This document shows, in pieces, positions 22,584-25,047 of a stretch of DNA of 28,795 bases (position 1 is its first letter; every line of letters starts with the position of its first letter). A program made the position numbers and the translations under genes. Source of the stretch: an uncultured Clostridia bacterium. Lineage in GTDB: Bacteria > Aerophobota > Aerophobia > Aerophobales > AE-B3A. Location of the stretch: contig CAYYHL010000002.1 of assembly GCA_964471775.1 (NCBI GenBank), positions 1-28,795 of the forward strand, given 5' to 3'. Under the pieces are notes generated by a model. That model did no database searches, had not been told where the DNA came from, and saw only the letters and a list, made by a program, of their open reading frames with translations.

Positions 22584-23729
22584 ATGACATCAAAGGAACG
22601 ATTGTTGCGTGCTTTGACGCATAGCGAGCCCGATAGAGTACCCATCGATCTGGCCGGCACTCCTGTGACGTCTATATGCAAGGGAGCATATGAAAGTTTC
22701 CGAAAGTATCTAGATTTGCCGGAGGAGGAGATCGTCATAATTGACCAGATGCAGCAACTACCGGCAGTTAGAGAAGACCTCCTTACGAAGGTGAGAAGTG
22801 ATACGCGTTGTATACCTGGACATCCTCCCTCTAACTGGAAGTTGGAGATCAAAGAAGAAGGCCGATATCTCACATACTACGACGAATGGAATATCAAACT
22901 GAGAATGCCCAAACAAGGTGGTTTGTACTACGATTTTGTAGGATTTCCCCTTGCTGATGCTAGGATTGAAGATCTGGCTACCTACCGGTGGCCGAACGCG
23001 AAAGATAAAGATCGCTTTGTTGAGCCTGGGAGGAGGGCTAGGAAGTTACATGATAGAGGTGAGTACGCTATTGGCGTCCCAGCACCTCTTGGCGCCGGTT
23101 TCTTTGAGGAATCCTGGTGGCTGAGAGGTATGCCTAATATTATGATGGATATGGTTAACAATCCAGAATTCCTGGAGACCTTGCTGGAAAATCTGCTCCA
23201 AATCTACATGGAGGCCTGGGATGGATTGCTAAATGTTGCCGGTGAGTACGCAGACTTTGTTCAGATTGGTGATGATTTATGTGCTCAAAACGGACCCTTG
23301 ATGTCTCCAAGGCTCTACCGCAAGTTTATCAAGCCACGGGCCAGAAAATTGATTGAGTTTATTAGAAAAAGGACAAAAGCCCCGGTTTTCTTCCATTGCT
23401 GTGGATCAGTTGCCCCTTTGCTCCCTGATCTTATCGAAATTGGAGTGGATATATTGAACCCTGTCCAGGTGAGCGCTGCTGGTATGAATACCAAAGAACT
23501 GAAGAAAGACTTTGGCAAGGACATAGTCTTTTGGGGTGGCTGTGATACTCAACATATCCTTCCTTACGGCACTCCTGAGATGGTAAGAAAAGAGGTGAAA
23601 AGGATAATTGATGATCTTGCTCCCGGCGGAGGCTTTGTCTTCAGCACCGTGCATAATATTCAAAATGACGTTCCTCCAGAGAATTTGTGGGCAATGTACG
23701 AGACAGTATGGGAGTATGGGCGCTATTAG
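22584..23729 (+). CDS. URO-D / methylcobamide:CoM methyltransferase (MtaA)-like family protein
   Basis: EPDRVP, GDDLCAQNGPLMSP, FFHCCG, IGVDILNPVQ, LAPGGGFVFSTVHNIQ; lacks the HemE RQAGR motif. Confidence 0.9.
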   Translation: MTSKERLLRALTHSEPDRVPIDLAGTPVTSICKGAYESFRKYLDLPEEEIVIIDQMQQLPAVREDLLTKVRSDTRCIPGHPPSNWKLEIKEEGRYLTYYDEWNIKLRMPKQGGLYYDFVGFPLADARIEDLATYRWPNAKDKDRFVEPGRRARKLHDRGEYAIGVPAPLGAGFFEESWWLRGMPNIMMDMVNNPEFLETLLENLLQIYMEAWDGLLNVAGEYADFVQIGDDLCAQNGPLMSPRLYRKFIKPRARKLIEFIRKRTKAPVFFHCCGSVAPLLPDLIEIGVDILNPVQVSAAGMNTKELKKDFGKDIVFWGGCDTQHILPYGTPEMVRKEVKRIIDDLAPGGGFVFSTVHNIQNDVPPENLWAMYETVWEYGRY

Positions 23730-23892
23730 GCGTAGGTCAAACAGAGATATTAACCGAGTAAAAGTGCGTTAACCCGATGCCGAAGCCGAAAATTTCGGGT
23801 TGATTAAGAGAGAGAACTCACCATTTGAGACAAAACTTGAACTATCGCTAACCAGCCAACTACAACATATCCTCCGACTGTTGTGTAATTCT

Positions 23893-25047
23893 TCAAGTCT
23901 CCCTGTCAAATTTCCCCAAGCTCAAAGGATATTTTCCGAACTTCTTCGCTAGGTCGAGGGCGTAGCGGTAGTTTTCGGGGGGAACATCGCTGGCAATTGA
24001 ATGGTCAGATTGAAATATATATCCGCCACCCTTGGCGGCGTTGAGCTTACTGAGGACTTCCTTTCTTATTGCTTCCCTGTTTCCTTTGGTCAGAACTCTA
24101 AGATCTATATTCCCCACCCAAGCAAGGCGGTTCCCGTATTTTCTTTTCATTTCAACTACGTCCAGCCCTGCCTTTGCCTCAAGTGGATTATACCCATCAA
24201 TTCCGGCATCAATCAGCATATCCATTATCTCTCTAGTATCTCCGCAACTATGGTAGACTATCTTCATTCCCAGAGAGTGAAACTCCTTGCACATTGTTTC
24301 TAGGTGGGGGTACACAAGTTTTTCCCAGATTGTTGGAGAGAAAAGCATACCGTTAGTGTAGGCGACATCACCCCAGATATAGATCCCAGATAGAGCTCCT
24401 TTTGCCTGTTCAAATTGAGCTTTCCCTATTCCAATCATGAATTCAGCTATTCGTGCATTGAAGTCTTTTACAGCTTCTGGTTCCAAGGCGAGTTTCTGTA
24501 AAGCCTCCGTTGAACCTACAATTCTCCAGAGGGTCTCATAGGGATCACAAACACTCCCGAATACGCAGAAAGCATTTCTGCAAGAGTCGACTTTGCTAAT
24601 GAAGCTTGACTTCTCTTGGATGAAGGCATCGCCTAGATCGTTGAACATGTCATCTCCCTTATCGTGATAGCGACGACAATCATAGGGATCATCAAACCGG
24701 AATTCTTCCATATCCTTCCTTGTCTTCACCGAAAAGTCGAGGTAGCTAGGCATAGGGTATCCAAATTTCTCCCTTACAATGCACTCCCAACCAGTTCTTA
24801 CTACTACGTAATCCTTATTTCTCTCGATAACTTCAAAATTCTTTATATGAGGGTCCATATTGGGACTAATCACCACATAATCAAGGTCAAAGTAGCGGTA
24901 GGGATCAGCATGTTTGGGAAGTGAGTATTTCTCCCGCCATCGATCTACGAAAGCACCCCAGAAAAACTCACCCACAGGTACTCTGTCTGGCTCCTGGCGC
25001 GAAAGTGCCGTGACTACCCTTTCTCTTTTTTCGACTGCTCGGTTCAT
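23893..25047 (-). CDS. URO-D / MtaA-like family protein (second, convergent copy)
   Basis: EPDRVP, WGDVAY, FSP, YHSCGD, GIDGYNPLE, GGGYIFQSDHSI. Start moved from 25218 to ATG 25047 after AAGGAAGG. Confidence 0.9.
   Translation of the reverse strand: MNRAVEKRERVVTALSRQEPDRVPVGEFFWGAFVDRWREKYSLPKHADPYRYFDLDYVVISPNMDPHIKNFEVIERNKDYVVVRTGWECIVREKFGYPMPSYLDFSVKTRKDMEEFRFDDPYDCRRYHDKGDDMFNDLGDAFIQEKSSFISKVDSCRNAFCVFGSVCDPYETLWRIVGSTEALQKLALEPEAVKDFNARIAEFMIGIGKAQFEQAKGALSGIYIWGDVAYTNGMLFSPTIWEKLVYPHLETMCKEFHSLGMKIVYHSCGDTREIMDMLIDAGIDGYNPLEAKAGLDVVEMKRKYGNRLAWVGNIDLRVLTKGNREAIRKEVLSKLNAAKGGGYIFQSDHSIASDVPPENYRYALDLAKKFGKYPLSLGKFDRET

What the first reader, a model, noticed from the sequence alone, without database searches (positions are those of the whole stretch)
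22584..25047. Two convergent URO-D/MtaA-like genes in a sugar locus with no corrinoid partner
Seen: both lack the HemE RQAGR motif. Both keep H-x-C (FFHCCG, VYHSCG) and carry His where MtaA has its third Zn-ligand Cys (STVHN, QSDHS). One follows the CUT2 importer directly. No corrinoid-binding (DxHxxG) protein or activator is present. Known: MtaA/CmuA-type proteins are Zn-dependent methyltransferases working with corrinoid proteins, and most URO-D-like proteins in anaerobes are uncharacterised. Inference: O-demethylation of methylated sugars using corrinoid proteins in trans, or a new Zn-dependent reaction on the imported sugar.
Basis: partly seen in the sequence, partly recalled or inferred. 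Interest (0 to 1): 0.6.

Follow-up and report, generated by a model that had tools for sequence, protein, structure and literature searches.

The report
Sugar-importer-linked B12-type methyltransferase paralogs
Two neighbouring genes encode uncharacterised relatives of vitamin-B12-dependent methyltransferases that sit beside a sugar importer, and comparison with other genomes suggests, without proving, that they strip methyl groups off imported methylated sugars without oxygen, a reaction for which I found no published enzyme.

Summary
Gene 1 (22584-23729, +) and gene 2 (23893-25047, -) are intact, convergent UroD-superfamily proteins. Both lack the HemE N-terminal motif and keep a His-x-Cys...His triad. 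Gene 1 directly follows an SBP-permease-ATPase importer.

They belong to two different, very large uncharacterised clades, called A and D here, and are 23% identical to each other. They fall far below the NCBIfam cut-offs for both HemE and MtaA/CmuA.

The corrinoid link is supported by comparison only:
- A small MtaC/MtgC-type corrinoid protein lies in 27 of 49 Chloroflexota loci with clade A, and abuts the gene in 10 of them.
- A genome of the window's own family has permease-ATPase-UroD-corrinoid protein-UroD x3 on one strand.
- In 201 Planctomycetota genomes, 23 of 25 with clade A and 6 of 6 with clade D carry that corrinoid protein type, against 20 of 176 without clade A.
- The window's genome encodes the partners in trans: a corrinoid protein next to a methyl-THF methyltransferase (contig C18) and two RACE activators.

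Links to sugar genes are broad. That the substrate is a methyl sugar remains inference.

The scan has raised this same idea before on other DNA, in at least 16 notes. I found no paper describing it. Nothing biochemical is shown here.

The parts
19648..20643 (+). Substrate-binding protein of the importer (monosaccharide, CUT2 type)
   Evidence: Pfam Peripla_BP_4, E 6e-29. The closest solved structures are sugar-binding proteins 3rot, 2qvc and 4ru1. The best NCBIfam match is the rhizopine SBP at 135 bits, below its cut-off of 420. Orthologs lie next to clade A genes in 38 of 80 loci.
20713..21732 (+). Importer permease
   Evidence: Pfam BPD_transp_2, E 7e-40. Orthologs are present in 39 of 80 clade A loci.
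21729..22487 (+). Importer ATPase with a single ABC domain (252 aa)
   Evidence: Pfam ABC_tran, E 7e-26. It overlaps the permease gene by 4 nt. Orthologs are present in 41 of 80 clade A loci.
22584..23729 (+). Gene 1: clade A UroD-superfamily protein, candidate substrate:corrinoid methyltransferase. Triad H271, C273, H357.
   Evidence: PF01208, E 3.7e-30. The family alignment A1 has H271, C273, H357, D231 and Q235 invariant. The AF2 model has pLDDT 93 and its best PDB match is MtaA 4ay7. It falls in clade A of the tree. The family has 1468 clusters at 50% identity with E <= 1e-30.
23893..25047 (-). Gene 2: clade D UroD-superfamily protein, convergent with gene 1. Triad H266, C268, H349.
   Evidence: PF01208, E 2.6e-24. 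The family alignment A2 has H266, C268, D348 and H349 invariant. It is 23% identical to gene 1 with the triad aligned. The AF2 model has pLDDT 90 and a UroD fold. It forms a separate clade with 99 support. A 72% ortholog lies next to an ABC importer in genome G018.
25048..25779 (.). 732-nt non-coding stretch between gene 2 and the divergent transaldolase-fold gene; presumed promoter region of gene 2
   Evidence: No ORF of 80 aa or more. No Rfam family, so no cobalamin riboswitch. Only consensus promoter-like matches at chance level.

Best explanation
Both genes most likely encode methyltransferases of the UroD superfamily that work with a corrinoid (vitamin B12) carrier protein made elsewhere in the genome.

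Proposed course, with steps marked:
1. The importer takes up a methylated monosaccharide or sugar-like polyol (inferred).
2. The UroD-like enzyme binds it in a polar TIM-barrel pocket (inferred).
3. A metal, probably Zn2+, held by the His-x-Cys...His triad polarises the methyl-bearing atom (inferred).
4. Co(I) of the corrinoid protein on contig C18 takes the methyl group (inferred).
5. The adjacent pterin-binding methyltransferase passes the methyl group to tetrahydrofolate. The gene is shown; the step is inferred.
6. The RACE activators on C50 and C273 re-reduce oxidised cobalt. The genes are shown; the step is inferred.
7. The demethylated sugar enters the neighbouring catabolic genes (inferred).

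Gene 1 (clade A) is the importer's own enzyme. Gene 2 (clade D) is a second, separately transcribed enzyme. It may take another methyl position or substrate, or it may carry out the second half-reaction.

The roughly 20 paralogs in this genome, several of them each behind a different importer, suggest one substrate-specific methyltransferase per importer, all sharing one carrier module.
For: Family:
- Both pass the Pfam URO-D cut-off.
- They score higher on the MtaA/CmuA models than on HemE.
- For gene 1 the best solved fold is MtaA 4ay7.
- The N-terminus reads EPDRVP as in MtaA-like paralogs.
- The triad occupies MtaA's zinc-ligand positions and is invariant in 20 and 22 homologues.

Corrinoid link by adjacency:
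- A small corrinoid protein (PF02310 + PF02607, DxHxxG invariant) lies in 27 of 49 Chloroflexota loci with clade A, and in 10 of them within 300 nt of the gene.
- A RACE activator lies in 4 loci.
- In G010, of the window's own family, permease, ATPase, UroD, corrinoid protein and three more UroD genes lie on one strand.

Corrinoid link by co-occurrence, among 201 Planctomycetota genomes:
- 23 of 25 with clade A carry this corrinoid protein type at 250 bits or more, against 20 of 176 without (odds ratio 90, Fisher p 2e-16).
- 6 of 6 with clade D carry it.
- 5 of 5 genomes of other phyla whose clade A locus lacks a corrinoid gene have small corrinoid proteins elsewhere.

Own genome:
- The C18 corrinoid protein scores 335 bits against that profile, as high as the adjacent ones.
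- It sits next to a methyl-THF:corrinoid methyltransferase (NF005719, 340 bits, over the cut-off).
- There are two RACo_C_ter activators.

Sugar link:
- The importer trio is present in 40 of 80 clade A loci across four phyla.
- LacI, FGGY kinase, class II aldolase, AraA, FucI-like or GalK genes are present in 42 of 80.
- In this genome, paralogs on C52 and C6 also follow importers.
- Clade D loci carry L-rhamnose mutarotase (21 loci), fucosidase, sulfatase and fuconate-pathway genes.
Against: - No corrinoid gene lies in the window.
- Outside Chloroflexota and the window's own phylum, 0 of 31 clade A loci have one. So did none of the 46 clade D loci of 6 kb or more.
- An earlier check of the same idea on other DNA found a carrier gene near the family in only 6 of 34 genera.
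- The co-occurrence counts are not corrected for kinship. They may track an anaerobic lifestyle, and only 9 candidates per genome were scored for clades A and D.
- Scores for MtaA/CmuA are a quarter of the cut-off.
- The third ligand is His, and clade B has Asp in place of Cys. That fits a general Lewis-acid metal site as well as a methyltransferase site.
- An alkyl methyl ether is a poorer methyl donor than an aryl one.
- Twenty or so paralogs in a 2.3-Mb genome is a lot for methyl sugars alone.
- The substrate, the metal and the activity are all untested.
Confidence: 0.45

Rival explanations
1. Corrinoid-independent metal enzyme. The His/Cys(Asp)/His site holds a Lewis-acid metal, and the proteins carry out some other first step on the imported sugar, such as isomerisation, epimerisation, hydrolysis or decarboxylation. 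The corrinoid genes seen in some lineages would serve only some clades.
For: - No corrinoid gene lies in the window, in 31 of 31 non-Chloroflexota clade A loci, or in 46 clade D loci.
- Cys is exchanged for Asp in clade B.
- Paralogs sit behind many different importers in one small genome.
- Clade D sits between mutarotase and fucose- or rhamnose-pathway genes, like an ordinary pathway enzyme.
Against: - Every characterised metal-bearing member of this superfamily transfers alkyl groups.
- The corrinoid protein directly abuts clade A genes in 10 loci.
- Genome-level co-occurrence is strong for both clades.
- Known sugar isomerases, kinases and aldolases are already encoded beside these genes.
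Confidence: 0.22
2. Second-step (MtaA-like) methyltransferases. They take the methyl group from methyl-Co(III) and put it on a thiol or other acceptor activated by the metal, while a different protein demethylates the substrate.
For: - MtaA is the best solved match of gene 1, and the triad sits at MtaA's zinc positions.
- Heterotypic pairs and triples of UroD clades are the rule: A-B-C in Chloroflexota, D with an A-like gene in L107, L108 and L178, and A with D here. This fits a division into first-step and second-step enzymes.
- The Chloroflexota operons lack a pterin-binding methyltransferase.
Against: - Thiol-alkylating zinc sites normally have two or three Cys; here there is one.
- This genome already has a pterin-binding second-step enzyme beside the carrier.
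- Both models carry a beta-rich insert of roughly 70-80 residues after the first strand. MtaA, at 340 aa, is too short to hold it. The first-step enzyme CdmB has extensions at the same place (PMC13222342).
- No other candidate first-step enzyme lies in the A-plus-carrier loci.
Confidence: 0.15
3. Corrinoid-dependent methyltransferases whose methyl donor is not a carbohydrate ether, for example an N-methyl or S-methyl compound taken up by a sugar-type importer.
For: - In G029 a clade A gene and a sugar-type importer lie on one strand with MttB-carrier-MttB-RACE.
- This genome's other two carriers are paired with MttB-family genes.
- SBP specificity cannot be read from sequence.
Against: Recurrent neighbours are LacI, AraA, FGGY kinase, class II aldolase, GalK and FucI-like genes, and for clade D rhamnose mutarotase and fucosidase. 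These point to sugars.
Confidence: 0.1
4. Genuine uroporphyrinogen decarboxylases (HemE) of haem synthesis.
For: The Pfam family name and the annotations in public records. For gene 2, HemE structures match as well as MtaA does.
Against: - TIGR01464 scores 36 and 24 bits against a cut-off of 303.
- The N-terminal half does not match the profile, and RQAGR is absent.
- There are about 20 paralogs in the genome.
- No ferrochelatase was found, in a genome that is 79% complete.
- The genes sit in importer operons.
Confidence: 0.01

Closest known systems
MtaA/MtbA/MtsA methylcobamide:coenzyme M methyltransferases (PDB 4ay7; NCBIfam TIGR01463 MtaA/CmuA family)
   Same: UroD-type TIM barrel. It is the best solved fold match for gene 1. 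The N-terminal (E)PDRVP motif is shared. His-x-Cys lies on the same strand, and the third ligand position is occupied. A small corrinoid protein is used as partner; here that is inferred from context.
   Different: Scores of 57-67 bits against a cut-off of 235. The third ligand is His, not Cys. The proteins are about 40 residues longer, with a beta-rich insert after the first strand. They occur in sugar-import operons of bacteria, not in methanogenesis. The acceptor or donor is unknown.
First-step methyltransferases of bacterial and archaeal corrinoid systems: OdmB/VdmB (Acetobacterium), MtvB (Moorella), MtoB, and the chloromethane enzyme CdmB (PDB 9rui; PMC13222342)
   Same: UroD superfamily. 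They work as a four-part system (first-step enzyme, carrier, pterin-binding second-step enzyme, ATP-dependent activator), and all four kinds of gene are present in this genome. They have extensions between the first barrel strands. Many paralogs occur per genome; the paper reports 26 methyltransferase systems in A. dehalogenans.
   Different: Sequence similarity is marginal (CdmB E 0.005 and 0.77). The known substrates are aryl methyl ethers or methyl halides. CdmB and MtvB need no zinc, whereas here a His/Cys/His triad is invariant. The known systems are encoded as one cluster; here the first-step genes are scattered behind importers.
Cytochrome P450 6-O-methyl-D-galactose demethylase of marine Bacteroidota (PMC6292453)
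   Same: Among the papers I searched, the described enzyme for removing a methyl ether from a sugar during polysaccharide use. It has the same proposed physiological role.
   Different: Unrelated fold and chemistry. It needs O2 and releases formaldehyde. The system proposed here would work without oxygen and conserve the methyl group on folate.
Uroporphyrinogen decarboxylase HemE
   Same: Same fold and Pfam family. The His of HemE's GHG motif aligns with H357 and H349.
   Different: No RQAGR motif. The N-terminal half does not match. Scores are a tenth of the cut-off. There is no haem context. HemE needs no metal and has no His-x-Cys.

Membership tests
UroD superfamily (Pfam PF01208) | Profile score over the gathering threshold | tested here: met
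   105.6 and 86.3 bits against a cut-off of 23.9, though only the C-terminal half aligns.
UroD superfamily (Pfam PF01208) | UroD-type (beta/alpha)8 barrel fold | tested here: met
   AF2 models have pLDDT 93 and 90. The top Foldseek matches are MtaA and HemE at E 1e-13 to 1e-16 and TM 0.6-0.75.
HemE (uroporphyrinogen decarboxylase, TIGR01464) | Equivalog model score over the cut-off | tested here: not met
   36 and 24 bits against a cut-off of 303.
HemE (uroporphyrinogen decarboxylase, TIGR01464) | N-terminal substrate-binding RQAGR motif | tested here: not met
   Absent. The N-termini read SEPDRVPIDL and QEPDRVPVGE.
HemE (uroporphyrinogen decarboxylase, TIGR01464) | Haem-pathway context | tested here: not met
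   No ferrochelatase was found in the 79%-complete genome. There are about 20 paralogs. The genes lie in importer operons.
MtaA/CmuA methyltransferase family (TIGR01463) | Subfamily model score over the cut-off | tested here: not met
   67 and 57 bits against a cut-off of 235. Even the two more MtaA-like paralogs of this genome (C331, C1) reach only 129-139 bits.
MtaA/CmuA methyltransferase family (TIGR01463) | Zinc ligands His-x-Cys plus a third Cys | tested here: not met
   His-x-Cys is kept. The third position is His (H357, H349) and is invariant in both clades. Metal binding itself was not tested.
Corrinoid-dependent methyltransferase system (first-step enzyme, carrier, second-step enzyme, activator) | A cognate small corrinoid protein with DxHxxG | tested here: inconclusive
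   None in the window. One of the type that abuts clade A genes elsewhere lies on contig C18 (335 bits), and two more are paired with MttB genes. Cognate pairing is inferred from adjacency and co-occurrence in other genomes.
Corrinoid-dependent methyltransferase system (first-step enzyme, carrier, second-step enzyme, activator) | Second-step methyltransferase and ATP-dependent activator in the genome | tested here: met
   NF005719 methyl-THF:corrinoid methyltransferase at 340 bits against a cut-off of 259, beside the C18 carrier. RACo_C_ter hits on C50 and C273.
Corrinoid-dependent methyltransferase system (first-step enzyme, carrier, second-step enzyme, activator) | Methyl transfer between substrate and Co(I)/Co(III) | not testable with these tools
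   This needs an anaerobic enzyme assay.
CUT2 monosaccharide ABC importer | Peripla_BP_4 SBP with a BPD_transp_2 permease | tested here: met
CUT2 monosaccharide ABC importer | Fused double-domain ATPase of about 500 aa | tested here: not met
   A single ABC domain of 252 aa. The same short form occurs in the orthologous loci. The paralogous locus on C6 has a 521-aa form.

The most novel reading that the evidence does not exclude
Clades A and D are the substrate-specific first-step enzymes of a so far undescribed, oxygen-independent way of removing methyl ethers from sugars or cyclitols. It would use a His/Cys/His zinc site and a shared corrinoid carrier. The layout would be 'one methyltransferase per importer, one carrier module per genome'. 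This would explain the roughly 20-50 UroD paralogs in the small genomes of this candidate phylum. It would also feed sugar-borne methyl groups into folate one-carbon metabolism in anoxic habitats.
Probability: 0.35. Interest if true: 0.8.

Novelty: new variant of a known kind. Interest (0 to 1): 0.55.

Why it matters
Methylated sugars are common in plant, algal and bacterial polysaccharides. Examples are 6-O-methyl-galactose, 4-O-methyl-glucuronate, 2-O-methyl-fucose and -xylose, and methyl-inositols. These methyl groups block ordinary sugar catabolism. The demethylase I found described in the literature searched needs oxygen (a P450; PMC6292453).

If these very large UroD clades are the anaerobic answer, three things follow:
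- A common 'uroporphyrinogen decarboxylase family protein' annotation would be wrong for thousands of genes. Clade A alone has 1468 clusters at 50% identity with E <= 1e-30.
- A new substrate class would be added to corrinoid methyltransferases.
- A hidden source of methyl groups for one-carbon metabolism in sediments, digesters and guts would become testable.

This window is a weak single instance, because it holds no carrier gene. It does, however, show the scattered in-trans layout clearly.

Tried and rejected
Context was taken instead from the search for related loci, the genome search and my own ORF calling, which is crude. Some opposite-strand shadow ORFs (clusters c7, c8 and c1 of the second set) had to be ignored.
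- A cobalamin riboswitch or other RNA in the 732-nt region upstream of gene 2, or anywhere in the window: none at Rfam gathering scores.
- Promoter and terminator scans were at chance level.
- Five literature searches found no corrinoid-dependent sugar demethylase. The mlp cluster paper (PMC10418091) does not mention sugars. PMC99624 (MtvABC) is not held.
- The PF02607 search across Planctomycetota was swamped by MetH and its list was truncated. I replaced it with a profile of the adjacent carrier type.
- In the window's own phylum both clade A and the carrier are near-universal (27 and 26 of 31 genomes). That comparison therefore has no discriminating power.
- Gene 2 is not the B or C partner of the Chloroflexota operons.
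- No close ortholog of gene 1 exists even within the phylum (52% identity at most). The orthology of gene 1 with the carrier-adjacent clade A genes is at clade level only.
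Full report
WHAT IS THERE

The window is a run of sugar-type genes on the + strand. In order: an HTH-cupin regulator; a CUT1 importer; an E1 alpha/beta pair; an Amdase-like gene; a FucI-like isomerase; an HMGL-like aldolase; a Gfo/Idh/MocA dehydrogenase; a split transketolase; a 143-aa ORF without family; an SDR. After a gap come an SBP (19648-20643), a permease (20713-21732) and an ATPase (21729-22487), followed 97 nt later by gene 1 (22584-23729).

Gene 2 lies on the other strand (23893-25047), convergent with gene 1, with 163 nt between the two stop codons. 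It is divergent from a transaldolase-fold gene across 732 nt of non-coding DNA. Gene 1 has a strong AAGGAG site. Gene 2 most likely starts at the ATG at 25047, which is preceded by GGAAGGAAGGG and matches the 384-aa length of its homologues.

THE OBSERVATION

Both proteins pass the Pfam URO-D cut-off (E 3.7e-30 and 2.6e-24), but only from profile position 138-160 onwards.

In a multiple alignment with the genome's own MtaA-like paralog (C331, motifs HICG and SGCEI), H357 of gene 1 falls on that protein's third Cys. In HMMER alignments it falls on HemE's GHG His. One pairwise alignment to 4ay7 shifts the register onto the PGGGF glycines, so the ligand equivalence rests on the multiple alignment.

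The two proteins are 23% identical over their whole length, with the triad aligned. AlphaFold models are confident (pLDDT 93 and 90). Both show a UroD barrel with a beta-rich insert after the first strand, at about residues 45-125 in gene 1. D231, H271, C273 and H357 sit just after successive barrel strands, where TIM-barrel active sites lie.

The best solved fold for gene 1 is the corrinoid-dependent MtaA (4ay7, E 2e-16), followed by HemE. For gene 2, HemE and MtaA are equivalent.

WHAT THEY ARE NOT

- HemE: 36 and 24 bits against a cut-off of 303, no RQAGR, about 20 paralogs in the genome, and no ferrochelatase found.
- Members of the curated MtaA/CmuA family: 67 and 57 bits against a cut-off of 235.

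TWO LARGE CLADES

Each gene has thousands of full-length relatives at about 50% identity. They occur in Chloroflexota, Planctomycetota, Verrucomicrobiota, Bacillota, Actinomycetota and others, and are nearly all annotated only as 'uroporphyrinogen decarboxylase family'. For gene 1 there are 1468 clusters at 50% identity with E <= 1e-30.

The FastTree trees place the genes as follows:
- Gene 1 falls in clade A (support 98).
- Gene 2 falls in a separate clade D (support 99).
- Two further clades, B and C, are the tandem partners of A in Chloroflexota.

The triad is invariant in A, C and D. In B the Cys is Asp.

LINK TO SUGAR GENES

Among 80 genome loci holding a clade A gene (one per species):
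- 40 carry at least two orthologs of the window's SBP-permease-ATPase trio within 6 kb, in Chloroflexota, Bacillota, Verrucomicrobiota and Actinomycetota.
- 42 carry LacI, FGGY kinase, class II aldolase, AraA, a FucI-like isomerase, GalK or a xylose-isomerase-like TIM barrel.

In the window's own genome, clade A paralogs on C52 and C6 also follow such importers, and other paralogs follow CUT1 importers.

For clade D, 80 metagenome loci show L-rhamnose mutarotase in 21, usually between two UroD paralogs. They also show alpha-L-fucosidase, sulfatase, TonB receptors, Gfo/Idh/MocA, Amidohydro_2 and enolase-superfamily genes, which is a fucose/rhamnose setting.

A 72% ortholog of gene 2 in a genome of the same order sits next to an ABC importer. 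The closest relatives of gene 2 (L107, L108, L178) are again paired with an A-like gene. The A-plus-D pairing in the window is therefore not unique.

LINK TO CORRINOID PROTEINS

1. Adjacency.
- A small protein with PF02607 + PF02310 and an invariant DxHxxG lies in 27 of 49 Chloroflexota loci.
- In 10 of these it lies within 300 nt of the clade A gene. In most others it lies about 2.1 kb away, after B and C.
- A RACE activator is present in 4 loci.
- None of 31 loci from other phyla has one.
- In G010, a genome of the window's own family, permease, ATPase, UroD, carrier and three more UroD genes lie on one strand.
- In G029 a clade A gene and its importer are followed by MttB-carrier-MttB-RACE.

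2. Co-occurrence.
- All five genomes of other phyla that I tested have small carriers elsewhere.
- In an even sample of 201 Planctomycetota genomes, 25 have clade A. Of these, 23 have a carrier scoring 250 bits or more on the profile of the adjacent type, against 20 of 176 without clade A (odds ratio 90, Fisher p 2e-16).
- All 6 genomes with clade D have it (p 7e-5).
- These counts are not corrected for kinship or lifestyle, and only 9 UroD candidates per genome were scored.

3. The window's genome (2.26 Mb, 445 contigs, 79% complete).
- It has about 20 UroD paralogs and three whole small carriers.
- The carrier on C18 scores as high on the profile as the adjacent ones (335 bits). It is followed by a methyl-THF:corrinoid methyltransferase (340 bits, over the cut-off).
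- The other two carriers are paired with MttB-family genes.
- Two RACE activators lie on C50 and C273.
- None of these contigs carries a UroD paralog, so the parts are scattered.

HOW IT MOST LIKELY WORKS

The best-supported reading is a corrinoid-dependent methyltransferase that acts first on the imported compound. The steps are:
1. Co(I) of the shared carrier takes a methyl group from the substrate, which is held at the metal site.
2. The pterin-binding enzyme moves the methyl group to folate.
3. RACE repairs oxidised cobalt.

The following are shown: the genes, their clades, their conserved residues, their neighbours and their co-occurrence. The following are inferred: the metal, the direction of transfer, the methyl-sugar substrate, and which clade does which half-reaction.

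The insert after the first strand, and the published observation that the first-step enzyme CdmB carries extensions there (PMC13222342), lean towards a first-step role. The single Cys argues against thiol alkylation.

The weak similarity of the SBP to the rhizopine (3-O-methyl-scyllo-inosamine) binding protein, together with the Gfo/Idh/MocA and IolO-like genes in the window, make a methyl-cyclitol worth testing. This is only a lead.

RIVALS

- A corrinoid-independent metal enzyme remains a serious rival. The reasons are the lack of carrier genes near most non-Chloroflexota loci and near all clade D loci, and the Cys/Asp exchange in clade B.
- A second-step role, or a non-sugar methyl donor, are smaller rivals.
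- HemE is excluded for practical purposes.

WHAT IS KNOWN

I found no paper describing corrinoid-dependent demethylation of a sugar. The sugar demethylase those searches turned up is an oxygen-dependent P450 (PMC6292453). The CdmB paper notes UroD-superfamily first-step clades with unknown substrates.

Within this scan the same idea has been raised at least 16 times on other DNA, including loci that do hold the carrier. One earlier check found the carrier near the family in only 6 of 34 genera. That agrees with my 27 of 80, all within one phylum. I looked at those notes after my own analysis; they did not change the reading.

VERDICT

It is a new variant of a known kind of system and is biochemically untested. 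This window is a scattered, carrier-less instance of it.

Noticed in passing
L027:14049-16891 (and 10-11 of the 80 clade A loci): In Chloroflexota operons the corrinoid protein is followed directly by a radical-SAM activase and a short (about 700 aa) glycyl radical enzyme of the PFL2/glycerol-dehydratase group (326 bits, below every equivalog cut-off), and then by AraA. What it does next to a methyl-transfer module is unexplained.
   Followed up: partly
L027:11206-12324 and the rest of clade B (27 sequences): Clade B, the usual tandem partner of clade A, has Asp in place of the Cys of the His-x-Cys motif (26 of 27 sequences) and keeps the His. The metal site therefore differs systematically between partners.
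   Followed up: partly
window 21729-22487: The importer's ATPase is a single 252-aa ABC domain, although the SBP and permease are of the CUT2 type, which normally has a fused double ATPase. The same short form recurs in the orthologous loci.
   Followed up: no
window 25048-25779: A 732-nt stretch without ORFs lies between gene 2 and the divergent transaldolase-fold gene. It has no Rfam match.
   Followed up: partly
window 3415-4580: About 1.1 kb has no ORF of 80 aa or more on either strand and no Rfam family at gathering score.
   Followed up: no
window 18110-18541: A 143-aa ORF between the split transketolase and the SDR gene overlaps both neighbours by a few bases. It has no Pfam or NCBIfam match.
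   Followed up: no
L188 (G029:C67:6000-19000): On one strand lie an FGGY kinase, a clade A UroD gene, a sugar-type SBP, two permeases and an ATPase, then MttB, corrinoid protein, MttB and RACE. This is a sugar-type importer joined to a quaternary-amine-type methyltransferase set.
   Followed up: no
L081 (G000:C18:993-5366): The genome's candidate shared carrier module sits in a run of aldehyde:ferredoxin oxidoreductase, a 3-hydroxyisobutyrate-dehydrogenase-like gene, the corrinoid protein and the methyl-THF methyltransferase.
   Followed up: no
G000-G030 (the window's phylum): The window's phylum has only 31 species in the collection, all in one order, with genomes of 0.9-2.6 Mb. Several of these genomes nevertheless give 30-50 UroD-like candidate hits each, an unusual expansion for such small genomes.
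   Followed up: partly
L108:5094-5441 and 20 other clade D loci: An L-rhamnose mutarotase (RhaM) gene typically lies between two UroD paralogs of different clades, ahead of an ABC importer.
   Followed up: partly
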